From assembly GCA_028688325.1 (NCBI GenBank), contig JAQTYI010000001.1, positions 246,994 to 300,619 on the forward strand: DNA of 53,626 nucleotides, written 5' to 3'. Under the pieces are notes generated by a model. It saw nothing but the letters and a program-made list of their open reading frames with translations. It searched no databases and was not told the origin of the DNA. Position numbers and translations under genes: made by a program. This stretch comes from Candidatus Portnoybacteria bacterium. Its GTDB lineage: Bacteria; Patescibacteriota; Minisyncoccia; Portnoybacterales; GWB1-42-6. Positions 1,964 through 53,621 of the stretch are shown here, piece by piece. Within the stretch, counting starts at the first letter, position 1. Each line of letters starts with the position of its first letter.

Positions 1964-2049
1964 TTGTCATTCCCGTCCCGTATCAAGTACTGGATAAACT
2001 CCAGCGGGAATTCAGGGCCTGGATCCCGGGTCAAGCCCGGGATGACAAA
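1964..2049 (+). mobile_element. Palindromic MITE-like element, intergenic copy (family TGTCATTCCCG...CCCGGGATGACA)
   Basis: It shares its termini and its internal hairpins (ATCCAGGGCCTGGAT; CCCGGG-tcaag-CCCGGG) with 36932-37049 and 53370-53439. Confidence 0.7.
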
Positions 2050-2057
2050 ATATACTT

Positions 2058-2619: not shown

Positions 2620-2721
2620 AATGACTAATTTCCAATGACAAATGATCAATAAAATCACAAATCTCAATGCCTTTATGATTTGATATTTGGACATTTATTG
2701 GTCATTGGGATTTTGTCATTT
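2620..2721. repeat. 102-bp imperfect-hairpin intergenic repeat, family A copy 1 (upstream of infB)
   Basis: Near-identical (2 mismatches seen) to 4754-4855. The arms AATGACAAATGAyCAATAAA and TTTATTGGTCATTGGGATTTTGTCATT are reverse complements. Confidence 0.85.
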
Positions 2722-4753: not shown

Positions 4754-4855
4754 AATGACTAATTCCCAATGACAAATGACCAATAAAATCACAAATCTCA
4801 ATGCCTTTATGATTTGATATTTGGACATTTATTGGTCATTGGGATTTTGTCATTT
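4754..4855. repeat. 102-bp imperfect-hairpin intergenic repeat, family A copy 2 (upstream of the DHH gene)
   Basis: Near-identical to 2620-2721 and in the same orientation. Confidence 0.85.
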
Positions 4856-8020: not shown

Positions 8021-8190
8021 AAGTTTATGCCTTATCTCGGACCATATAAGCTCCCTATATAAGGGGGCTAAAAGCCCTCAAATAAGGCATTTACCCCGTT
8101 AGAAATAACTCTATTCGGCTCTATTCCCTCATAAGAGTATCGGGTTATTTCTAACGGGGTTACCCAACAAAAAATCCCCTCATTGGGGAA
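8021..8190 (-). promoter_or_regulatory. Structured ~170-nt leader of the 3D-domain gene, with a 5' terminator-like hairpin + U6, a 17-bp perfect hairpin and a start-proximal hairpin
   Basis: The minus strand carries TCCCC-aatga-GGGGA-UUUUUU, then ACCCCGTTAGAAATAAC...GTTATTTCTAACGGGGT, then ATGCCTTAT...ATAAGGCAT just 5' of the ATG. Alternative GGGG/CCCC pairings are possible. Confidence 0.35.
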
Positions 8191-22050: not shown

Positions 22051-22431
22051 TTAATTTAAGGGGAGGTTGGGAGGGGTTATGTGTTCCAAAATTTTTAAAA
22101 TCACTCCATCCGTATTTTTCAAAATATCGTTATCCCAGAATCTTAATATATTTATATTAAATTGCTCTAAATAGCAAGTGCGTTTTGTGTCATGTTCTTT
22201 TTGCGATATATCGTGCTGACTCCCATCAGCTTCAATGCCCAATCTTATTGCCGGACAATAAAAATCCAGGATATATGGGCCGACGCTGTATTGGCGGAAA
22301 AACTTTACTCCGGCTAATTGCCTATTTCGTAATTTTGACCAAAGCTTTCGTTCAGCATCGGTTGATGCTTTCCTTAAATCACGCCGGTGTATTTTAACAG
22401 AAGATTTGTTAAAAACAAATTTTTTGTTCAT
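22051..22431 (-). CDS. DUF559 (Vsr-like) endonuclease domain protein
   Basis: The pattern FFRQYSVGPYILDFYCPAIRLGIEADGSQH...LRFWDNDI is typical of DUF559. It is AT-rich and bracketed by G/C-rich hairpins at 22040-22075 and 22440-22480. Confidence 0.85.
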   Translation of the reverse strand: MNKKFVFNKSSVKIHRRDLRKASTDAERKLWSKLRNRQLAGVKFFRQYSVGPYILDFYCPAIRLGIEADGSQHDISQKEHDTKRTCYLEQFNINILRFWDNDILKNTDGVILKILEHITPPNLPLN

Positions 22432-22485
22432 TTTCTAACTCCCCCTAACCCCCTCTTAATCTAAGAGGGGGAATTAGATCAATCG

Positions 22486-23466
22486 TTATCCTCTTTTCTT
22501 CCCGTGAAAATTCTTGTGTATCTCGCGCAATTGCTTGTCGGTGATATGAGTGTATATCTGAGTGGTGGTGATAGAGGAGTGACCCAGCATCGCTTGCACG
22601 GACCTGATATCCGCGCCGCTCATTAAAAGATCAGTGGCAAAAGAGTGGCGCATAGTATGCGGGGTGACGCGGCGAGTAATGCCGGCTTTGATGGCATACT
22701 GTTTGATTATCCTTTGCACGGAACGCGGTGTCAAGCGCATCTCCGACAATCGGACCTTCTGGGCCTTGCCGGTCTTAACCTGGATCGCGTCCACCTTGCC
22801 CAGCGACCCCTTGCCTTTGGGCGTACGCACAAACAGCGCCGGCTCGATATCCTTGCGCTTGGCCAGATAAGTTTTTACGGCTGCTTTGGCGGTATCGGAA
22901 ATAAAAACAACCCTGATCTTTTCGCCTTTACCGCGCACAGAAAATTCGCCTTTATCCAGGTTAAAGCTGTCTCGGTTCAATCTGCAAATTTCCGAAACGC
23001 GCAGGCCGGTGGAAAAAAGCATTTCCAGCAACGCCCGGTCGCGCAGGGAACGAAGCGAGTCCCCGTCGGGGGAGCGCAGAAGCCGCGCTAGTTCGTCGCC
23101 CTCCAGAAATTCCACTTCGCGCGGCGCCTGCCTGGCCAGCTCAATCTTGTCGGCCGCCATGGATTTGACATCCCGTTTGGCCAGATATTTCAAAAAATTG
23201 CGCAGGGCGATAATATGATAATTCTGGGTTATCTTTTTCAGGCCCTTGCCCTTCGAAGCTTTAGCGGAGGAGGGTTCCAGGCGATTCAGGTGTAGCCGGT
23301 AGTCGCGGATGAGGTCCGCGTTGATGTCATCCGCGCTTTTTATCTTGGCAAACGCCAAAAACCGCCGCAAATAATGGCCGTAATTTTCCGTGGTCTTAAT
23401 TGACCGGCCGCGTTCAACTTCCAAATAAGCCAGATAATCCGCTAATAATTTTTCTATGTCCTGCAT
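22486..23466 (-). CDS. xerC: Site-specific tyrosine recombinase, XerC/XerD family
   Basis: N-terminal SAM-like domain (YLAYLEVERGRS), catalytic region R...HTMRHSFATDLL...GHSSITTTQIYTH. Start at ATG 23466. Confidence 0.9.
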   Translation of the reverse strand: MQDIEKLLADYLAYLEVERGRSIKTTENYGHYLRRFLAFAKIKSADDINADLIRDYRLHLNRLEPSSAKASKGKGLKKITQNYHIIALRNFLKYLAKRDVKSMAADKIELARQAPREVEFLEGDELARLLRSPDGDSLRSLRDRALLEMLFSTGLRVSEICRLNRDSFNLDKGEFSVRGKGEKIRVVFISDTAKAAVKTYLAKRKDIEPALFVRTPKGKGSLGKVDAIQVKTGKAQKVRLSEMRLTPRSVQRIIKQYAIKAGITRRVTPHTMRHSFATDLLMSGADIRSVQAMLGHSSITTTQIYTHITDKQLREIHKNFHGKKRG

Positions 23467-23835
23467 TTTTTTGCCGAGATTTTGCGATGTTTGAAAAATG
23501 TCGCAACAATCTCGGCGCATATTGCGATACAATTTTAACTGCGTTGTAATATGTTCATTTTACGACATAAAAATCTTCCGCGCAATCCCAAAATACTCCG
23601 GGCAGTTACCCCAGCCAGAAATTCAACCATGCTCCACAATAAACCAAGCGGGAAAGCGATTTCGCCTGCTCGCCTCGCTAAAGCGAGAGCAAAGCGGGTG
23701 GCTTTGTTCTAAATAATCCGGATTTCAAGGCAAACTTCCAGCGGGGCATTGCATTTTTTCCCAATCCGTGTTATCTTCAAACCAATAAAGATAACCGATC
23801 ATTTTTGGAACTTCGCCCCAGAAATATCCATATCA

Positions 23836-23969
23836 ATGCCAGGTAGTGAAAATTCGGTAGTTTATCCGAATCATAAATATACTTGGCAAATCAATAAAAT
23901 AGAAAGAAATAGCGGCTTAAATTTACTTTATCATTTGAATTAAATACAGCCGAATTTCTACTACCTGGA
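23836..23969 (+). promoter_or_regulatory. Start-codon-abutting inverted-repeat leader cassette, copy 1 (rpsO)
   Basis: ATGCCAGGTAGTGAAAATTCGG ... CCGAATTTCTACTACCTGGA|ATG. The 19-bp arms at 23839-23857 and 23950-23968 are complementary. The same architecture occurs at 30582-30714 and 34061-34191. Confidence 0.6.
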
Positions 23970-24236
23970 ATGTTAAAAAAAGCCAAGAAAAGCAAAATTA
24001 TAGAAGAATTCAAGGCCCACGATACCGATACGGGCTCGCCCGAAGTGCAGACGGCCATCTTGACCGAGCAGATAAAAAAACTGACGGGCCATTTGAAAAA
24101 ACACGCCAAAGACAATCATTCCCGTTTCGGCTTGCTGAAAATGGTCGCCAAACGCAAAAAGCTTATCGACTATTTGTCCAAAGAAGACCCTGAGAGGCAT
24201 AAAAAACTTTTGAAAAAGCTGGACTTGAAAAAATAA
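23970..24236 (+). CDS. rpsO: 30S ribosomal protein S15
   Basis: 88 aa. The pattern DTGSPEVQTAILTEQIKKLTGHLKKHAKDNHSRFGLLKMVAKRKKLIDYL is typical of S15. Confidence 0.97.
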   Translation: MLKKAKKSKIIEEFKAHDTDTGSPEVQTAILTEQIKKLTGHLKKHAKDNHSRFGLLKMVAKRKKLIDYLSKEDPERHKKLLKKLDLKK

Positions 24237-30252: not shown

Positions 30253-30538
30253 GTTCCTTGAAGCTGGCTACCGCAGTTATAATAATTGATTTGTTCTTTT
30301 AACGCCCAACGGGGCATAGCTGGCCGAGGAATATTCGTTTTCCTTTTTGTAGCTTATATAGTCCGGCGGGCCGCATATAAAAAAGGCCTAATGGCTTTCT
30401 GTTTTTAGATAAGGTACAAAGGGGCTGAGGGGCGTTAGCCCCATTAAATCATATTTTTCGGGCCTTAACGCCCCTCAAACAGTTTATCCCTCAGCGCACA
30501 GTATGAAGAAAAAACCACCCGGAATGGGGTGTTTTTTG
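30253..30538 (+). ncRNA. Candidate ~286-nt structured ncRNA of unknown class, or a long structured 3' UTR
   Basis: Bounded by the promoter above and by the terminator CACCC-ggaat-GGGTG+T6 (30513-30538). It has no credible ORF. It contains an 11-bp perfect helix GAGGGGCGTTA/TAACGCCCCTC extended by CTGTTT/AAACAG, and a mutually exclusive GGGGCT/AGCCCC hairpin. Confidence 0.3.
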
Positions 30539-30581
30539 TTTGCGCCCTTGCCTTATCCGCCTTTTTTACCATATACTATAT

Positions 30582-30714
30582 ATGCCGGGTAGTGAAAATT
30601 TGACAGGTTATATTTTGCAAAAATAACTTGCCAAGCTCTCACAACTTAGGCAGAATATAAGCATATTAATCCACTTATTATATTAATTATTCGGTCAAAT
30701 TTCTACTACCCGGT
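30582..30714 (+). promoter_or_regulatory. Start-codon-abutting inverted-repeat leader cassette, copy 2 (dksA-like gene)
   Basis: ATGCCGGGTAGTGAAAATTTGAC ... GTCAAATTTCTACTACCCGGT|ATG. Arms at 30585-30604 and 30694-30713. A TTGCCT-N18-TATACT promoter ends 4 nt upstream (30572-30577). Confidence 0.6.
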
Positions 30715-31080
30715 ATGGATAAGAAAACTATGGATAGATTCAAAAAGATATTGGAAGAGCGCAAAGCCAAGCTGGAAAACGAGTTGGCTTCTTTCGCCAA
30801 GAAAGACGAGAAGGTGAAGGGGGACTACGACACCCAATTCCCTGATTTTGGCACGGCTCAAAGCTCGGACGAAGAGGCATTTGAAGTGGCGGCTTATGAC
30901 AGCGCCCTGCCGGTTGAATACGCGCTGGAACTGCGCCTGGCAGACATCAACAAGGCCCTGGAAAAGATAAAAAATGGCACCTACGGCCAATGCGAAAACT
31001 GCGCCGGCGAGATGGACCCGCGACGACTGGAGGCCATGCCGGAAGCCCGCCTCTGCCTTAAATGCCGCAAAGGTAAATAA
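30715..31080 (+). CDS. DksA/TraR family C4-type zinc-finger protein
   Basis: Coiled-coil N-terminus plus CENCAGEMDPRRLEAMPEARLCLKC (CxxC-x17-CxxC). Confidence 0.9.
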   Translation: MDKKTMDRFKKILEERKAKLENELASFAKKDEKVKGDYDTQFPDFGTAQSSDEEAFEVAAYDSALPVEYALELRLADINKALEKIKNGTYGQCENCAGEMDPRRLEAMPEARLCLKCRKGK

Positions 31081-49566: not shown

Positions 49567-50472
49567 TTGAAAAAAACACATGCCATTATTTTTCTTGCGG
49601 TATTTCTTTGCTTGTTGATCGGCGGCAAAGTTTTTGCCGCCGACTACAAAATAGAAGTTCCGCTACCCGGGCTCCCGTCCGGCTCTTCCATTTCCGACCC
49701 GGGCCAATATGTTAAATATCTTTTCATCTTCGGTTTGGCTTTAGCGGGATTTCTGGCGGTGGCAGCCATCGCCTACGGCGGGATAAAATATATGCTGTCG
49801 GGAACCACTATCACCAATGTGCAAGACGCCAAGGACTTGATCTACGGGGCATTGATAGGCATTGGCTTCCTGTTGGGCTCATACCTTTTGCTGTATACAA
49901 TAGACCCGACTTTGACGAATCTGTCTCTTGTGTCATTGAATAAAATAAATATCCCGAAAATCATTGAGGACTATGACCTGCCGGCGAATATAACTGCCGG
50001 CAAAACCGCAGACGAACTGAATGCCATAATAAGTAGCGGAAAAATAAACGGGCAGGCCACGGCCTCTTGCTCCATCGGAACTTGCGGCAGCCAAACGGTG
50101 CAAGGACATACGCTTTCCTCCGGAGCGGCGGCAAAATACTCCGATCTACGGCAAAACATTCAACAGGCATGCGCCGAGCAGGGATTATCATGCGATACCT
50201 CAATATCTTCTTCCGTTGACGGCCAGCACGCTTCAAGCTGCCACAAGCAAGGCACCGCCACCAGCGGCACCTGCGGCGACTTTGTCATCACCGCGCCGGA
50301 ATGCGGCGGCAGCATCAAGTCCTGCTCCCCGGCGGTTAAAGAAAAATATATCCAAGTCGCTTCCGGTGTTTTAAGCGGCTCCGGAGCCAAAGATATCCGC
50401 ACCTGCCTGAATGAATACAAGGTTAAGGGCTCAAGCTATTCGACCGGCGGACACTTCCATTGTAATTTTTAA
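49567..50472 (+). CDS. TrbC/VirB2-like T4SS pilin-family protein with Cys-rich C-terminal domain (paralog 1)
   Basis: Signal peptide, then a two-TM hairpin module (YVKYLFIFGLALAGFLAVAAIAYGG...GALIGIGFLLGSYLLLYTIDP), then a 170-aa tail with multiple Cys. Confidence 0.6.
   Translation: MKKTHAIIFLAVFLCLLIGGKVFAADYKIEVPLPGLPSGSSISDPGQYVKYLFIFGLALAGFLAVAAIAYGGIKYMLSGTTITNVQDAKDLIYGALIGIGFLLGSYLLLYTIDPTLTNLSLVSLNKINIPKIIEDYDLPANITAGKTADELNAIISSGKINGQATASCSIGTCGSQTVQGHTLSSGAAAKYSDLRQNIQQACAEQGLSCDTSISSSVDGQHASSCHKQGTATSGTCGDFVITAPECGGSIKSCSPAVKEKYIQVASGVLSGSGAKDIRTCLNEYKVKGSSYSTGGHFHCNF
49663..49925 (+). repeat. 263-bp near-identical direct repeat, copy 1 (N-terminal module of pilin paralog 1)
   Basis: Matches 50581-50843 with a single mismatch seen (gttaaAtatc vs gttaaGtatc). 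Confidence 0.9.
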
Positions 50473-50478
50473 TCTCTT

Positions 50479-51153
50479 ATGGATATTCTGAATAAAAAAT
50501 TATTTATCTTCTTTGGCCTCATATTATGCGCCTGGCTTTTTGCCTTGCCGGCGCAAGCGGCCTATGAGGTTCAAATCGCCCTACCCGGGCTCCCGTCCGG
50601 CTCTTCCATTTCCGACCCGGGCCAATATGTTAAGTATCTTTTCATCTTCGGTTTGGCTTTAGCGGGATTTCTGGCGGTGGCAGCCATCGCCTACGGCGGG
50701 ATAAAATATATGCTGTCGGGAACCACTATCACCAATGTGCAAGACGCCAAGGACTTGATCTACGGGGCATTGATAGGCATTGGCTTCCTGTTGGGCTCAT
50801 ACCTTTTGCTGTATACAATAGACCCGACTTTGACGAATCTGTCGCCCAGGGTGCCGCCAGTCATCAATATTTCCGCGCCAGCCGCGCCGACGCCAGGAAC
50901 CCAAAACTGCAATCCGAGTTGCCAAACCGGATATAGATGCGATCCTTACAGAAACTATACTTGTGTTAAAATAGAAGTGACCACCCCTGGAATGACAGGG
51001 AATCAAACTCCCGGCCAATGCCAAGAATTCAAAACAATACCAAGCGGATGCGCGCAAGGCCATAAGGTGTGGAATCCTAATACCTGTATGTGCGAGGGAT
51101 GCGGTGACAGCTATAAATGGGATTACTCGACAAAAAGTTGCGTGCTCAAATAA
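50479..51153 (+). CDS. TrbC/VirB2-like T4SS pilin-family protein with a different Cys-rich C-terminal domain (paralog 2)
   Basis: The two-TM module is identical to that of 49567-50472. The unrelated ~100-aa tail carries multiple Cys residues (NCNPSCQTGYRCD...CMCEGCGDSYKWDYSTKSC). Confidence 0.6.
   Translation: MDILNKKLFIFFGLILCAWLFALPAQAAYEVQIALPGLPSGSSISDPGQYVKYLFIFGLALAGFLAVAAIAYGGIKYMLSGTTITNVQDAKDLIYGALIGIGFLLGSYLLLYTIDPTLTNLSPRVPPVINISAPAAPTPGTQNCNPSCQTGYRCDPYRNYTCVKIEVTTPGMTGNQTPGQCQEFKTIPSGCAQGHKVWNPNTCMCEGCGDSYKWDYSTKSCVLK
50581..50843 (+). repeat. 263-bp near-identical direct repeat, copy 2 (N-terminal module of pilin paralog 2)
   Basis: See 49663-49925. Confidence 0.9.
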
Positions 51154-52351: not shown

Positions 52352-53621
52352 TCCAGAAAACCAGCGCCAGGTCGTTTTTCCAAAAAGTGGTGTCTGCCAA
52401 GCCGTGAACCAGAACATATACCATCATAGCCGCCAAAAATATTGCCGGCCATGATGGTATTTTGTTTAATGATTTGAACGCCTGCCGGAAAAAAATCACC
52501 AGCAGCCAAATAAAACCGGCCAGGCCCAAAAGTCCCGCCTGCATCCACCAGGCCAGAAATAAGTTCTGGGGCTGAGGCACGGCCCACTCAAGATACGGCA
52601 CGGAAAAATATTTTTGGTATTCCAAATAATATCGCTGGAACATTCCCGGCCCGATACCCAAAATCCAGCTATCTTCCAAGATCTTTCCGGCCGCTTGCCA
52701 GATCATCAGGCGCGACTGCCAAGAAGAACGGGAAGAAGTAAACAGGCCGGCTAATTTATCGCTGTGCGCGCCATACATCTGAGAAAATAGCATAAACGCA
52801 AACGCAAGAAACAAGAAACAAGAAATAAGAAATAAATGCTTGCGATTTATTATTTTATATTTCCAAAAATAAAACAAAACGAAGGCCGCGGCCGCAAACA
52901 GTCCCAGCCAGGCGCCATAAGAATAAGTGAAACATAAAACAAGAAGCAAGAAGCAAGAAACAAAAAACAAGAAAGCTTTTTGATAAATTCTTTTTGTTTC
53001 CAACCACAAACCAACTCCAGCCAAAAGACCCGGCGCTAAAAACATTGCCAAGTGGTTGGGCGACAGATAAAAAGCCGACAAACGGCCATCAAAGGTCAGC
53101 CGGCTAAAAAAGAAATACCCCGCACTTATCGTCGCCACCGCGGCGCCGGAAGCCAACAAGGCCGAAAAAAATACTTTTACGCCGTCTTTTTCTCCCAGCA
53201 CATTATTAAAAATAGCGGCAAAGATTATCGGCGCTAAAAACCATGACTTTAAAATGCCTAACCCTGCCTTCAAGTCGGGCGAGAAGATCGTTGAAATAAG
53301 AACCCCCGCCAAGACCAATAATATCGGCCAAAATAATTTACTTTTTATAATTCTCTCGGTTCCTTTTTTTGTCATTCCCGCGAAGGCGGGAATCCAGGCC
53401 CGAATTAACCTGGATCCCGGGTCAAGCCCGGGATGACAATATAGCTGAATCTTTTTTATAAGCCAGACAAAAACAAAAACCCAAATCAGCGCCTCCAAAA
53501 CAGTCAGGGGCCACGAGCCGATCTTCAGCAAATAAAGCGGCGAGCAGAAGATGATCAGCCAGCCGCCCCAAACCGGCTTTTTCCAGGAAATAAATGCAAA
53601 AATCGCTAAGCCAAAAAACAA
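52308..53621 (-). CDS. O-antigen ligase (Wzy_C)-like polytopic membrane protein carrying an in-frame palindromic-element insert. The N-terminus may extend beyond the window.
   Basis: At least 10 TM helices and a YSYGAWLGLFAAAAF segment typical of Wzy_C. Its 3' end overlaps the convergent 51170-52351 gene by 44 bp. Confidence 0.65.
   Translation of the reverse strand: MFFGLAIFAFISWKKPVWGGWLIIFCSPLYLLKIGSWPLTVLEALIWVFVFVWLIKKIQLYCHPGLDPGSRLIRAWIPAFAGMTKKGTERIIKSKLFWPILLVLAGVLISTIFSPDLKAGLGILKSWFLAPIIFAAIFNNVLGEKDGVKVFFSALLASGAAVATISAGYFFFSRLTFDGRLSAFYLSPNHLAMFLAPGLLAGVGLWLETKRIYQKAFLFFVSCFLLLVLCFTYSYGAWLGLFAAAAFVLFYFWKYKIINRKHLFLISCFLFLAFAFMLFSQMYGAHSDKLAGLFTSSRSSWQSRLMIWQAAGKILEDSWILGIGPGMFQRYYLEYQKYFSVPYLEWAVPQPQNLFLAWWMQAGLLGLAGFIWLLVIFFRQAFKSLNKIPSWPAIFLAAMMVYVLVHGLADTTFWKNDLALVFWIIVFLCYKAGHRAY
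53370..53439 (-). mobile_element. Palindromic MITE-like element inserted in-frame within the O-antigen-ligase-like gene
   Basis: TGTCATTCCCGCGAAGGCGGGAATCCAGG...CCTGGATCCCGGGTCAAGCCCGGGATGACAA. It is translated on the minus strand as CHPGLDPGSRLIRAWIPAFAGMTKK. Confidence 0.75.

What the first reader, a model, noticed from the sequence alone, without database searches (positions are those of the whole stretch)
23836..23969. Conserved ~133-nt inverted-repeat cassette that ends exactly at a start codon (copy 1, rpsO)
Three stretches (23836-23969, 30582-30714, 34061-34191; 134, 133 and 131 bp) share one architecture. Each opens with ATGCCrGGTAGTGAAAATT (copy 3: ATGCGGGCAGTGAAAATT) and closes with AATTTCTACTACCyGG(a/t) (copy 3: ATTTCCCTTGCCCGGT). 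In each case the very next three bases are the ATG of a + strand gene: rpsO at 23970, the dksA-like gene at 30715, and pcrA at 34192. The two arms are reverse complements over 19-20 bp. Copies 1 and 2 keep the same irregularity (GTGAAAA opposite TTTCTAC, which gives one G.U and one A.C). Where their 5' arms differ (ccAgg..ttCGG vs ccGgg..ttTGAC), the 3' arms carry the compensating change (CCGaa..ccTgg vs GTCAaa..ccCgg), so pairing is conserved rather than sequence. The ~95-nt AT-rich interior is poorly conserved. No Shine-Dalgarno sequence lies between the 3' arm and the gene ATG. TATACT -10-like boxes end 4-8 nt upstream of copies 2 and 3, so the whole cassette could be transcribed as a leader that begins at its own AUG. 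That AUG opens short, non-conserved uORFs (MPGSEN..., MRAVK...). The three downstream genes are functionally unrelated. I do not recognise this as any described riboswitch, leader or MITE family. Possible roles are: a 5'-end-to-start-codon clamp protecting the mRNA, an RNase III substrate whose cleavage would create a leaderless mRNA, uORF-coupled unmasking of the start codon, or a MITE that targets NATG (flanks AATG/AATG, TATG/TATG, CATG/TATG).
Basis: seen in the sequence. Interest (0 to 1): 0.85.

Follow-up and report, generated by a model that had tools for sequence, protein, structure and literature searches.

The report
Start-codon-seeking MITE of GIY-YIG micro-transposons
The three 130-nt inverted-repeat cassettes are non-coding copies of a tiny mobile element, apparently undescribed, whose full version (about 305 bp) carries only an 86-residue GIY-YIG nuclease gene and which lands on start codons or ribosome-binding sites and duplicates them, so the host gene stays intact.

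Summary
Three copies (23839-23968, 30585-30713, 34064-34190) have 20-bp inverted arms and end one base before the ATG of rpsO, a dksA-like gene and a UvrD/PcrA helicase gene.

They are not a conserved leader RNA. The ATG in front of each cassette and the gene's own ATG are the two copies of a 3-4 bp target-site duplication. Close relatives carry empty sites with a single AATG or TATG.

More than 111 further stretches turned up in at least 45 Patescibacteria assemblies. Sixty-nine of 77 TATG-flanked copies abut a long ORF. One subfamily sits in GGAG/GAGG Shine-Dalgarno sites instead.

Elements of 303-331 bp with the same arms carry one ORF, an 85-98 aa GIY-YIG nuclease of the UPF0213/Slx1 type. 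That ORF always points the same way as the host gene. The inverted-repeat family and the target 4-mer both track the nuclease phylogeny.

Best reading: these are MITEs (miniature inverted-repeat transposable elements) mobilised in trans by a GIY-YIG nuclease. No insertion-sequence family I know of uses that enzyme, and I found no paper describing these elements.

Whether the transcribed hairpin also affects host expression is open. So is how start codons are singled out.

The parts
23835..23838 (+). Distal copy of the target-site duplication (AATG) of copy 1. This was the original rpsO start codon.
   Evidence: Flank pair AATG/AATG. The empty sites in L200 and L201 show ...ccccaaaaaatat..ttttcAATGytaaaaaaa with a single AATG.
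23839..23968 (+). MITE copy 1 (130 bp). 5' arm 23839-23858, 3' arm 23949-23968. A small local hairpin follows the 5' arm.
   Evidence: Strain-level relatives L002 and L003 are identical apart from one C>T at arm position 1.
23969..23972 (+). Proximal copy of the duplication (AATG). ATG 23970-23972 is the rpsO start codon now in use.
   Evidence: (Ribosomal_S15).
30548..30577 (+). Native promoter of the dksA-like gene (TTGCCT-18 nt-TATACT). It now lies 4 nt upstream of the distal ATG. A terminator of the upstream gene lies at 30516-30531.
   Evidence: The same promoter lies 6-7 nt before the single ATG in the empty sites L196, L197 and L198.
30581..30584 (+). Distal copy of the target-site duplication (TATG) of copy 2.
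30585..30713 (+). MITE copy 2 (129 bp). 5' arm 30585-30604, 3' arm 30694-30713.
   Evidence: An orthologous filled site in L195 has arms 38/40 and interior 78/89 identical.
30714..30717 (+). Proximal TATG. ATG 30715-30717 is the start of the dksA-like gene.
   Evidence: The homologues begin MDKK... at the same residue.
34047..34052 (+). TATACT, a -10-like box 8 nt before the distal ATG of copy 3. It probably belongs to the pre-insertion promoter of the helicase gene.
   Evidence: Sequence read directly. The consensus promoter scan did not call it.
34060..34063 (+). Distal flank CATG of copy 3. It is the decayed copy of the duplication.
34064..34190 (+). MITE copy 3 (127 bp), degenerate. The 5' arm is CGGGCAGTGAAAATTCGAC and the 3' arm is GCCGGATTTCCCTTGCCCGG. 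A strong hairpin GGGATATTTTTTTTCAAAAATATCCC follows the 5' arm.
   Evidence: The profile matches only its 5' part (E = 0.002).
34191..34194 (+). Proximal TATG. ATG 34192-34194 is the start of the UvrD/PcrA-type helicase gene.
   Evidence: The UvrD-helicase Pfam match starts at residue 6.

Best explanation
Each cassette is a non-autonomous copy (a MITE) of a family of very small inverted-repeat elements found in Patescibacteria.

The autonomous form is about 305 bp. It consists of the same two 20-bp arms around a single ORF for an 85-98 aa GIY-YIG nuclease of the UPF0213/Slx1 type.

The elements insert with a 3-4 bp target duplication into (T)ATG. One sublineage inserts into GAGG instead. The surviving copies sit on the start codon or Shine-Dalgarno sequence of a host gene. 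The duplication regenerates that signal directly after the 3' arm, so the host ORF stays intact. The host gene continues to be transcribed from its own promoter, now through the element.

Shown:
- inverted arms, flanking duplications and insertion polymorphism;
- restriction to true gene starts;
- coding relatives with the same arms, always co-directional with the host gene;
- arm family and target 4-mer both tracking the nuclease phylogeny.

Inferred:
- The GIY-YIG protein is the enzyme that cuts the element ends and the target, and it mobilises the MITEs in trans.
- A folded (hairpin or cruciform) form of the arms, with its conserved tandem mismatch, is what the protein recognises.
- Read-through transcription, rather than a promoter inside the MITE, expresses the host gene.
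For: Flanking duplications. Among 126 copies in loci L004-L114 plus the window, flank pairs are TATG/TATG 52, CATA/CATA 13, TATA/TATA 4 and CCTC/CCTC 4, with single cases of AAAA, CAAA, CGTG, CTTG and ATAA.

Empty sites.
- dksA-like gene: L196, L197 and L198 (77-79% identical protein) show TATACT, then 6-7 nt, then a single ATG. L195 (86%) is filled.
- rpsO: L200 and L201 (92-94% identical S15) show a single AATG.

Gene starts.
- 69 of 77 outward-reading TATG flanks open an ORF of at least 60 codons, against 26% of all TATG sites (p = 3e-31).
- Only about 19% would be expected among non-coding plus start-codon TATG sites (p = 2e-41).
- Pfam matches of 15 of the 20 sampled host proteins begin at residues 1-12 (S6, aminoacyl-tRNA synthetases, PGK, enolase, SecA, RpoD).

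Autonomous relatives.
- L083:5220-5526 has the same arms, CATA/CATA flanks and an 86-aa ORF matching PF01541 GIY-YIG (E = 4.6e-16).
- A protein-based metagenome scan, blind to the arms, gave 12 more elements of 303-423 bp (all but one 303-331 bp) with arms of this family. In each the ORF starts 25-29 nt from the 5' end. A long host ORF starts 0-1 nt (ATG duplication) or 7-9 nt (GAGG duplication) after the 3' arm in 9 of the 12.

Co-evolution.
- GIY-YIG homologues about 45-55% identical are flanked by other repeat families (CCCCGTTAGAGAT, CCCGCCTAAATTTTT, CCCCGTrGGA).
- The nearest protein neighbour has the same repeat class in 37 of 37 cases.
- The four GAGG-targeting copies cluster together.

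The protein.
- Catalytic-type residues are invariant in 36 homologues.
- The AlphaFold model has pLDDT 92.
- The nearest solved relatives are UPF0213 proteins and the Slx1 nuclease domain.

Decay. Arms pick up mutations in old copies (window copy 3; L195 arms 38/40), as expected of a parasite rather than a required RNA.
Against: - No GIY-YIG nuclease is known to act as a transposase (my knowledge). No activity was tested here. A conventional transposase acting in trans cannot be excluded from sequence alone.
- No GIY-YIG gene lies in the window, and the other 735 kb of the source genome could not be searched.
- Most MITE copies were collected with an exact arm pattern, so arm conservation and the GA/AG asymmetry in that set are biased by ascertainment. 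Only the 12 protein-found copies, L195 and window copy 3 are unbiased.
- The 4-mer target does not explain why start codons are chosen. No extended motif exists (at most 0.3 bit per position).
- The orthologous MITE in L195 is 88% (interior) to 95% (arms) identical to window copy 2, while third codon positions of the adjacent gene are only 57-60% identical. That points to constraint, concerted evolution or later re-insertion, not simple neutral decay.
- In MITEs a GC-rich covarying hairpin lies next to the gene-distal arm in 47 of 52 cases. This orientation bias is unexplained for a non-coding parasite.
Confidence: 0.8

Rival explanations
1. The cassette is mainly a cis-acting RNA leader kept by the host. 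Its 20-bp helix would join the mRNA 5' end to the start codon, would be cut by RNase III to give a leaderless mRNA, or would be opened by translation of the uORF that begins at the first AUG.
For: - Every copy ends at a start codon.
- The arms covary: 21 of 27, 32 of 38 and 36 of 40 non-consensus bases are compensated at positions 3, 17 and 20.
- Folding is better than shuffles.
- -10 boxes lie 4-8 nt before the first ATG in copies 2 and 3.
- Orthologous copies at the dksA-like gene are more conserved than synonymous sites.
- Essential genes tolerate the insert, so it must be compatible with translation.
Against: - Close orthologues lack it and have a plain promoter followed by ATG.
- The flanks are target duplications of varied sequence.
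- The same arms enclose a nuclease gene.
- rpsO has an upstream leader, so the first AUG is not the 5' end there.
- uORF stops are scattered.
- No Rfam family matches.
- Arms decay in old copies.
Confidence: 0.07
2. It is an ordinary MITE moved by a conventional (DDE-type) transposase that makes 4-bp duplications. The GIY-YIG ORF would be only a passenger or a homing-type hitch-hiker inside some copies.
For: - Inverted arms plus a 3-4 bp duplication are the classic signature of DDE transposition (established knowledge).
- A DDE_Tnp_1/DUF4096 gene is present next to rpsO in one relative, L202.
- No GIY-YIG transposase is known (my knowledge).
Against: - In 13 of 13 coding copies the only ORF between the arms is the GIY-YIG gene, which fills the interior.
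- Three or more unrelated arm families each go with their own GIY-YIG clade, 37 of 37 by nearest neighbour.
- Target choice (TATG or GAGG) tracks the GIY-YIG clade.
- No element of 1-2 kb with these arms was seen. Only 15 of 265 arm matches were unpaired within 200 bp.
- The sequence upstream of rpsO in L202, next to that DDE gene, shows no similar arms.
Confidence: 0.1
3. The MITE has been domesticated as a portable promoter and leader cassette: an insulating hairpin, then an extended -10 box, then an AT-rich leader that drives the downstream gene.
For: - Many copies of one subfamily carry CTGGTAtaat-like motifs after the distal hairpin. These resemble the TGnTAnAAT boxes seen in native flanks.
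- The GC hairpin is distal to the gene in 47 of 52 copies.
Against: - A -10 weight-matrix scan of the interiors shows no strand bias towards the gene (mean best score 4.43 vs 4.41).
- The consensus scan finds no promoter in copies 1 and 3, and only weak ones in copy 2.
- The CTGG motif is also the complement of the 5' arm end, so it may be structural.
- Coding copies have no room for a promoter, yet they sit before essential genes.
Confidence: 0.08
4. It is an invertible promoter switch (inverton): the inverted repeats would be recombination sites for the tyrosine recombinase encoded next to copy 1.
For: - Inverted repeats flank a short AT-rich segment.
- A Phage_integrase gene lies at 22486-23532.
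- The interior and the arm asymmetry are found in both relative arrangements across copies.
Against: - Copies 2 and 3, and nearly all others, have no recombinase nearby.
- Three assemblies of the same strain show one orientation only.
- The flanks are target duplications and empty sites exist.
- No clear promoter lies inside.
Confidence: 0.02

Closest known systems
Bacterial MITEs that are co-transcribed with genes, e.g. Correia elements of Neisseria (also RUP, ERIC, Nezha)
   Same: - 100-150 bp with terminal inverted repeats and short target duplications.
- Many dispersed copies, and no coding capacity.
- They lie next to genes and form long hairpins in transcripts. For Correia elements these hairpins are RNase III substrates and can carry promoter pieces (established knowledge).
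   Different: - Correia elements duplicate TA, lie at varied distances from genes, and have no known matching coding partner.
- Here the duplication is the start codon or the Shine-Dalgarno sequence itself. About 90% of TATG-flanked copies abut a gene start. The matching coding element has a GIY-YIG nuclease, not a DDE transposase.
Free-standing and intron-encoded GIY-YIG homing endonuclease genes (I-TevI, Seg and Mob proteins of T4-like phages)
   Same: - A selfish gene whose only product is a GIY-YIG nuclease.
- It is inserted between or in front of host genes and co-transcribed with them.
   Different: - Homing endonucleases have a long DNA-binding tail and recognise one long target in a cognate allele. 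They spread by recombinational repair and have no terminal inverted repeats or target duplications (established knowledge).
- Here the protein is the bare 85-98 aa catalytic domain. The elements have 20-bp arms and 3-4 bp duplications and occupy dozens of unrelated sites.
- Sequence and fold matches to I-TevI are weak (E = 3e-3, TM 0.46-0.48).
UPF0213 (YhbQ/BH0048/EF2693) and Slx1 structure-specific GIY-YIG nucleases
   Same: These are the closest relatives by sequence and by fold: 1ywl E = 7.6e-12; 1zg2; Slx1 TM 0.61-0.71. Slx1 cuts branched DNA such as flaps and four-way junctions. That fits recognition of a hairpin or cruciform formed by the arms.
   Different: UPF0213 proteins are single-copy genes of unknown role, and Slx1 is a repair enzyme that works with Slx4. 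Neither is known to be flanked by inverted repeats or to be mobile (my knowledge).
IS200/IS605 elements with their palindrome-associated MITEs, and REP/REPIN sequences moved by RAYT (HUH single-strand transposases)
   Same: - Very small elements.
- The ends are recognised as imperfect hairpins.
- Short (4-5 nt) specific target sequences.
- Non-autonomous hairpin derivatives are present in high copy number.
   Different: - Those use a Y1 HUH transposase, make no target duplication and have subterminal hairpins rather than long-range inverted arms.
- Here varied identical flank pairs show a true duplication, and no HUH gene is present between the arms.
Integron gene cassettes with attC sites
   Same: - A promoterless small unit placed just downstream of a host promoter.
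- Imperfect inverted repeats whose conserved unpaired bases matter in the folded single strand.
   Different: Cassettes are moved by a tyrosine integrase into one attI site and form arrays. Here there is no integrase or array, and insertion is at many gene starts.
Penelope-like retroelements
   Same: They are the one known class of transposable element that uses a GIY-YIG endonuclease for integration.
   Different: They are eukaryotic retroelements in which reverse transcriptase does the copying and the nuclease only nicks the target. Here no reverse transcriptase is present.

Membership tests
MITE (non-autonomous inverted-repeat transposable element) | Terminal inverted repeats | tested here: met
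   20-bp arms, complementary at 18 of 20 positions in essentially all copies.
MITE (non-autonomous inverted-repeat transposable element) | Short direct duplication of the target at both ends | tested here: met
   Identical 4-bp flank pairs of at least 10 different sequences, and some 3-bp pairs.
MITE (non-autonomous inverted-repeat transposable element) | Small size, no coding capacity, many dispersed copies | tested here: met
   116-154 bp. 126 copies in at least 45 assemblies, more than 20 of them in one genome.
MITE (non-autonomous inverted-repeat transposable element) | Presence/absence polymorphism at orthologous sites, with a single target copy in the empty site | tested here: met
   dksA-like gene: L196, L197, L198 empty and L195 filled. 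rpsO: L200, L201 empty.
MITE (non-autonomous inverted-repeat transposable element) | A coding element with the same ends exists | tested here: met
   13 elements of 303-423 bp with the same arm family around a GIY-YIG ORF.
MITE (non-autonomous inverted-repeat transposable element) | Observed mobilisation | not testable with these tools
   This needs an experiment or read-level population data.
Known insertion-sequence families (DDE, DEDD, HUH, serine or tyrosine recombinase, Cas1) | The element encodes a transposase of one of these classes | tested here: not met
   The only ORF is PF01541 GIY-YIG. NCBIfam gives only a sub-threshold group I intron endonuclease match. The list of known classes is from my own knowledge.
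GIY-YIG homing endonuclease genes | GIY-YIG catalytic domain with conserved catalytic residues | tested here: met
   PF01541 E = 4.6e-16. Y4, Y6, G19, R27, H31, N32 and E63 are invariant in 36 homologues and Y17 is at least 90% conserved.
GIY-YIG homing endonuclease genes | An extra DNA-binding domain and a single long cognate target | tested here: not met
   The proteins are 85-98 aa, the catalytic domain only. Insertions lie at many unrelated genes.
Conserved cis-regulatory leader RNA or riboswitch | Match to a described RNA family | tested here: not met
   Rfam search at gathering and at E-value thresholds gave no relevant match.
Conserved cis-regulatory leader RNA or riboswitch | Kept upstream of orthologous genes in related genomes | tested here: not met
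   Absent from orthologues 77-94% identical.
Conserved cis-regulatory leader RNA or riboswitch | Base-pair covariation | tested here: inconclusive
   Covariation in the arms is strong, but matched transposon ends would show the same. Mismatches are mostly transitions with no clear strand preference.
IS200/IS605-type or REP/RAYT hairpin elements | No target duplication, and an HUH Y1 transposase | tested here: not met
   True duplications of varied sequence. No HUH ORF lies between the arms.
Inverton (invertible promoter) | Both orientations of the segment within one population, and an associated invertase | tested here: inconclusive
   Three assemblies of the strain agree in orientation, and a recombinase lies only near copy 1. 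Reads were not available.

The most novel reading that the evidence does not exclude
A bare Slx1/UPF0213-type GIY-YIG nuclease of about 86 residues is itself a transposase. That would be a sixth chemical class of prokaryotic transposase. It would make these 303-331 bp units the smallest autonomous transposable elements known. Under this reading the enzyme is aimed at translation start signals (TATG or GAGG), and its clade sets which signal is used. The element would thereby borrow the host promoter while regenerating the host's start codon or ribosome-binding site.
Probability: 0.45. Interest if true: 0.92.

Novelty: new variant of a known kind. Interest (0 to 1): 0.82.

Why it matters
If the GIY-YIG protein is the mobilising enzyme, this adds a new enzyme class to prokaryotic transposition. 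It would also define the smallest self-contained mobile element so far, less than half the size of IS200. The system is easy to test: one 86-aa protein, two 20-bp ends and a 4-bp target.

The insertion logic is unusual. The element lands on the start codon or the Shine-Dalgarno sequence, duplicates it, and so rides the host promoter without destroying the gene. This works even for essential genes such as secA, rpoD, aminoacyl-tRNA synthetase genes and rpsO.

It bears on annotation of Patescibacteria genomes. Gene callers extend ORFs into these cassettes or pick wrong starts. Homologues of the 121-aa DksA-like protein are called at 116-155 aa, and the one long call inspected (L199, 139 aa) has no cassette of this family.

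It bears on how leaderless or Shine-Dalgarno-less genes are translated when a 20-bp helix sits against the AUG.

It also offers a possible tool: a short-target, orientation-fixed insertion module.

Tried and rejected
- Rfam at curated thresholds (whole window) and at permissive thresholds (around copy 1): only tRNAs and noise.
- Target is the transcription start or open complex of leaderless genes. Many distal flanks do look like a -10 box, then 6-9 nt, then ATG. But rpsO has a roughly 95-nt leader, and Shine-Dalgarno-class copies lie at no fixed distance from a -10 box. Rejected.
- Internal promoter: no strand bias of -10-like motifs, and consensus scans are weak. Not supported.
- uORF coupling: stop positions are scattered.
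- In-frame capture of the host start codon to translate the nuclease: in frame in only 2 of 5 ATG-flanked coding copies, which is the chance rate. Rejected as a rule.
- Extended target motif: none beyond TATG.
- Recurrent hot-spot genes: 7 homologous host-gene pairs among 106. By my arithmetic that is about what chance gives.
- Simple inversion of the interior to explain the two arm arrangements: hairpin loops do not behave as a plain flip would predict, as judged by eye on L041 and L111. Left unresolved.
- Longer elements of 1-2 kb with these arms: none in the sampled loci.
- Carriage by phages: no match in the viral contigs.
- Literature: eight searches by keyword and by literal sequence found no description. 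The library lacks most subscription journals.
- Arm conservation in orthologous pairs from the pattern-selected loci was set aside as evidence of constraint, because those loci were chosen for intact arms.
Full report
**1. The observation**

The three stretches are as described.
- Each has a 5' arm CCrGGTAGTGAAAATTyGrC and a 3' arm GyCrAATTTCTACTACCyGG, around an AT-rich, poorly conserved interior.
- One base after each 3' arm comes the ATG of a + strand gene: ribosomal protein S15, a zf-dskA_traR protein, and a UvrD/PcrA-type helicase whose Pfam match begins at residue 6.
- Each stretch folds better than its dinucleotide shuffles (z = -4.1, -6.2, -4.3).
- Rfam has nothing for them.
- A profile built from the wider family finds only these three copies in the window. 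Copy 3 matches only in its 5' part (copies 1 and 2 were in the profile).

**2. The family is large and sits on gene starts**

They lie in at least 45 Patescibacteria assemblies, labelled Parcubacteria, Yanofsky-, Portnoy-, Gottesman-, Berkel-, Lipton- and Doudnabacteria among others. One genome (GW2011_GWB1_40_14) holds more than 20.

A relaxed arm search of those loci gave 126 copies of 116-154 bp. Their flanks are short direct repeats:
- TATG/TATG, 52 copies
- CATA/CATA, 13
- TATA/TATA, 4
- CCTC/CCTC, 4
- single cases of AAAA, CAAA, CGTG, CTTG and ATAA

The element proper is 23839-23968, 30585-30713 and 34064-34190.

Position relative to genes:
- In TATG copies the ATG opens a long ORF on the 3'-arm side. 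In CATA copies it opens one on the 5'-arm side.
- 69 of 77 outward-reading TATG flanks open an ORF of at least 60 codons, against 26% of all TATG sites in the same DNA (p = 3e-31).
- With crude gene calls, about 19% would be expected among TATG sites that are either intergenic or start codons (p = 2e-41).
- Twenty host proteins sampled at random are diverse, and many are essential: S6, three aminoacyl-tRNA synthetases, PGK, enolase, SecA, BipA, RpoD and RuBisCO. Fifteen of them match Pfam families, and those matches begin at residues 1-12. These are therefore true N-termini.
- A subfamily with arms ending in TTTGAy lies in GGAG/GAGG, with the ATG 3-8 nt further on. That is inside the Shine-Dalgarno sequence.
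- A few TATA-flanked copies lie inside the -10 box of a gene whose ATG follows 6-7 nt later.

**3. It is an insertion**

*dksA-like gene.* Homologues were taken.
- L195 (86% identical protein) has an orthologous cassette with TATG on both sides.
- L196/L197 (79%) and L198 (77%) have TTGCTT-N18-TATACT, then 6-7 nt, then a single ATG and the same MDKK... N-terminus. L199 has no arms.

*rpsO.*
- L200 and L201 (92-94% identical S15) join the window's left flank directly to the coding sequence...ccccaaaaaatat..ttttcAATGytaaaaaaa. They have a single AATG.

Copy 1 is therefore a lineage-specific insertion. It lies in a gene that has a conserved leader of roughly 95 nt. This rules out the idea that the cassette's first AUG is the transcript's 5' end there. 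It also rules out transcription start sites as the target.

**4. The coding partner**

One larger pair of arms in L083 (5220-5526, 306 bp, flanks CATA/CATA, abutting a start codon) encloses a single 86-aa ORF. That ORF is a GIY-YIG nuclease domain (PF01541, E = 4.6e-16).

A metagenome scan was made with an alignment of such proteins, so it was blind to the arms.
- The closest homologues (56-73% identical) are flanked by arms of this family.
- Twelve further elements of 303-331 bp (one of 423 bp) were found.
- In each the ORF starts 25-29 nt from the 5' end, on the same strand as the host gene downstream.
- A long host ORF starts 0-1 nt (ATG in the duplication) or 7-9 nt (GAGG duplication) after the 3' arm in 9 of the 12.

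More distant homologues (45-55% identical) are flanked by other inverted-repeat families, several again with ATG in the flanks. An example is ATG|CCCGCCTAAATTTTT...AAAAACTTAGGCGGG|TATG.
- Repeat class follows the protein tree. The nearest neighbour has the same class in 37 of 37 cases.
- The four GAGG-targeting elements cluster together.

The protein:
- It has hundreds of relatives in Patescibacteria, 69-98% identical, named only 'GIY-YIG nuclease family protein' or 'putative endonuclease'.
- Catalytic-type residues are invariant.
- The AlphaFold model is confident (pLDDT 92).
- Its nearest solved relatives by sequence and fold are UPF0213 proteins (1ywl, 1zg2) and the nuclease domain of Slx1, a structure-specific endonuclease.

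No GIY-YIG gene lies in the window itself.

**5. What the window copies are, and how they most likely work**

They are MITEs of this family. Their interiors are unrelated to the nuclease ORF, as is usual for MITEs.

*Shown:* arms, duplications, polymorphism, restriction to gene starts, coding relatives, and co-evolution of arms and target with the nuclease.

*Inferred:*
- The nuclease cuts the element ends and makes a cut in the target staggered by 3-4 nt. Host repair or ligation completes the insertion.
- The two arms always differ by a GA/AG swap at positions 10-11. This holds in 120 of 122 pattern-selected copies and in 12 of 12 protein-found copies. Which arm carries GA relative to the ORF differs between sublineages. 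That fits recognition of a folded strand with a tandem G.T/A.C pair by a structure-specific nuclease.
- Coding copies have no room for a promoter, yet they sit before essential genes. The host promoter must therefore read through the element. The same probably holds for the MITEs. For copy 2 the native terminator, the TTGCCT-18-TATACT promoter and the distal ATG are all intact.

**6. What remains unexplained**

- *Start-codon restriction.* The 4-mer specificity does not account for it. No extended target motif exists. Three candidate explanations remain:
  - Selection against insertions elsewhere.
  - Longer survival of copies that cannot be lost by imprecise deletion, because an essential start codon lies on one side and the promoter on the other.
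  - An unknown link to translation initiation.
- *Orientation of the MITE interior.* A GC-rich hairpin with covarying stems lies next to the gene-distal arm in 47 of 52 MITEs. This holds for all three window copies in a weaker form.
- *Conservation at the dksA-like site.* The orthologous MITE in L195 is 95% (arms) and 88% (interior) identical to copy 2. Third codon positions of the adjacent gene are only 57-60% identical. This suggests constraint, concerted evolution or re-insertion.
- *Internal alternative pairings.* In one subfamily each arm also has an internal complementary partner (CACTAnCTGG and TAGAAATTCGA). These could keep the start codon unpaired.

These points leave room for an RNA-level effect on the host gene, but they do not make it the primary explanation.

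**7. Tests of the RNA-leader ideas**

- uORFs that open at the distal ATG end at scattered positions, median 72 nt before the gene's AUG.
- Promoter-like motifs inside show no bias towards the gene.
- Arm covariation is strong (0 of 2000 shuffles reach the observed match at each variable position). Matched transposon ends predict the same.
- Old copies lose arm complementarity (copy 3; L195).

**8. Comparison with what is known**

The element works like a MITE with a very small autonomous partner. It meets every sequence-level criterion for a MITE.

It is not a member of any insertion-sequence family I know, because its only protein is a GIY-YIG domain.

It is not a classical GIY-YIG homing endonuclease gene. 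It has no DNA-binding tail and no single cognate site, and it does have inverted arms and target duplications.

Eight literature searches, including literal arm sequences, found no description. The library is incomplete, so prior description cannot be excluded.

**9. Caveats**

- All data are from metagenome-assembled genomes.
- The main copy set was selected with an exact arm pattern. Arm conservation in that set is therefore biased.
- Gene calls for the background statistics are crude.
- No activity has been shown.

**10. Verdict**

- Observation: confirmed.
- Best explanation: a start-codon-seeking MITE of GIY-YIG micro-transposons, confidence 0.8.
- Novelty: new variant of a known kind. 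There is a substantial chance that the enzyme class is new for transposition.

Noticed in passing
window 8094-8159 (flanks 8090-8093 TTTA, 8160-8163 TTAC): A 66-bp MITE of a second arm family (CCCCGTTAGAAATAAC...GTTATTTCTAACGGGG) with a TTA duplication. In metagenome loci the same arm family flanks other GIY-YIG genes. A sister copy with TTTA/TTTA flanks is present about 200 nt upstream of the dksA-like gene in L195, L196 and L197 but absent from the window, L198 and L199.
   Followed up: partly
window 1964-2051, about 36935-37050, and 53409-53443: A third repeat that looks like a MITE: TTTGTCATTCCCG...CCTGGATCCCGGGTCAAGCCCGGGATGACAAA, with a GC-rich internal hairpin. Similar GGGATCCAGG/GGAATGACAAA motifs flank a 96-aa GIY-YIG gene in L108.
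   Followed up: partly
window about 30380-30470: A GC-rich stretch (ggctgaggggcgttagcccc...cgggccttaacgcccctcaaacag) between the upstream gene and the terminator of the dksA-like region. It is conserved in L195-L199 and has no Rfam match at curated thresholds. It may be an unannotated small RNA or a structured 3' end.
   Followed up: no
L053:5810-6132; also L104:4413-4733 and L043:4847-5163: GIY-YIG genes of the same superfamily lie directly upstream of tRNA genes (Met-CAT, Asn, Gln). In L053 the gene is preceded by a duplicated 5' half of the tRNA-Met gene that ends at the anticodon loop CTCATA. CATA is the reverse complement of the TATG target.
   Followed up: partly
window 49663-49925 and 50581-50843: A perfect 263-nt direct repeat, spaced 918 nt apart.
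   Followed up: no
window 2620-2721 and 4754-4855: A 102-nt repeat, 98% identical, that contains a 44-nt imperfect palindrome (4754-4797 / 4811-4854). Possibly another small repeat element.
   Followed up: no
window 22051-23532 (- strand): A DUF559/MTES_1575 endonuclease-like gene and a tyrosine recombinase (Phage_integrase) gene lie directly upstream of rpsO. The relatives L200-L203 have other genes there, and L202 has an IS-type DDE_Tnp_1/DUF4096 pair. The region upstream of rpsO is therefore variable.
   Followed up: no
L124:79-400: A coding element whose 3' flank GTTG is followed at once by another arm (gttgCCCGGTAGTA...). This suggests tandem or nested insertion of two elements.
   Followed up: no
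window 30715-31080 and homologues P0003-P0030: Public gene calls for this 121-aa DksA-like protein range from 116 to 155 aa, so start-codon calls vary. The one long call inspected (L199, 139 aa) has no cassette of this family upstream, so a link to the cassettes was not shown.
   Followed up: no
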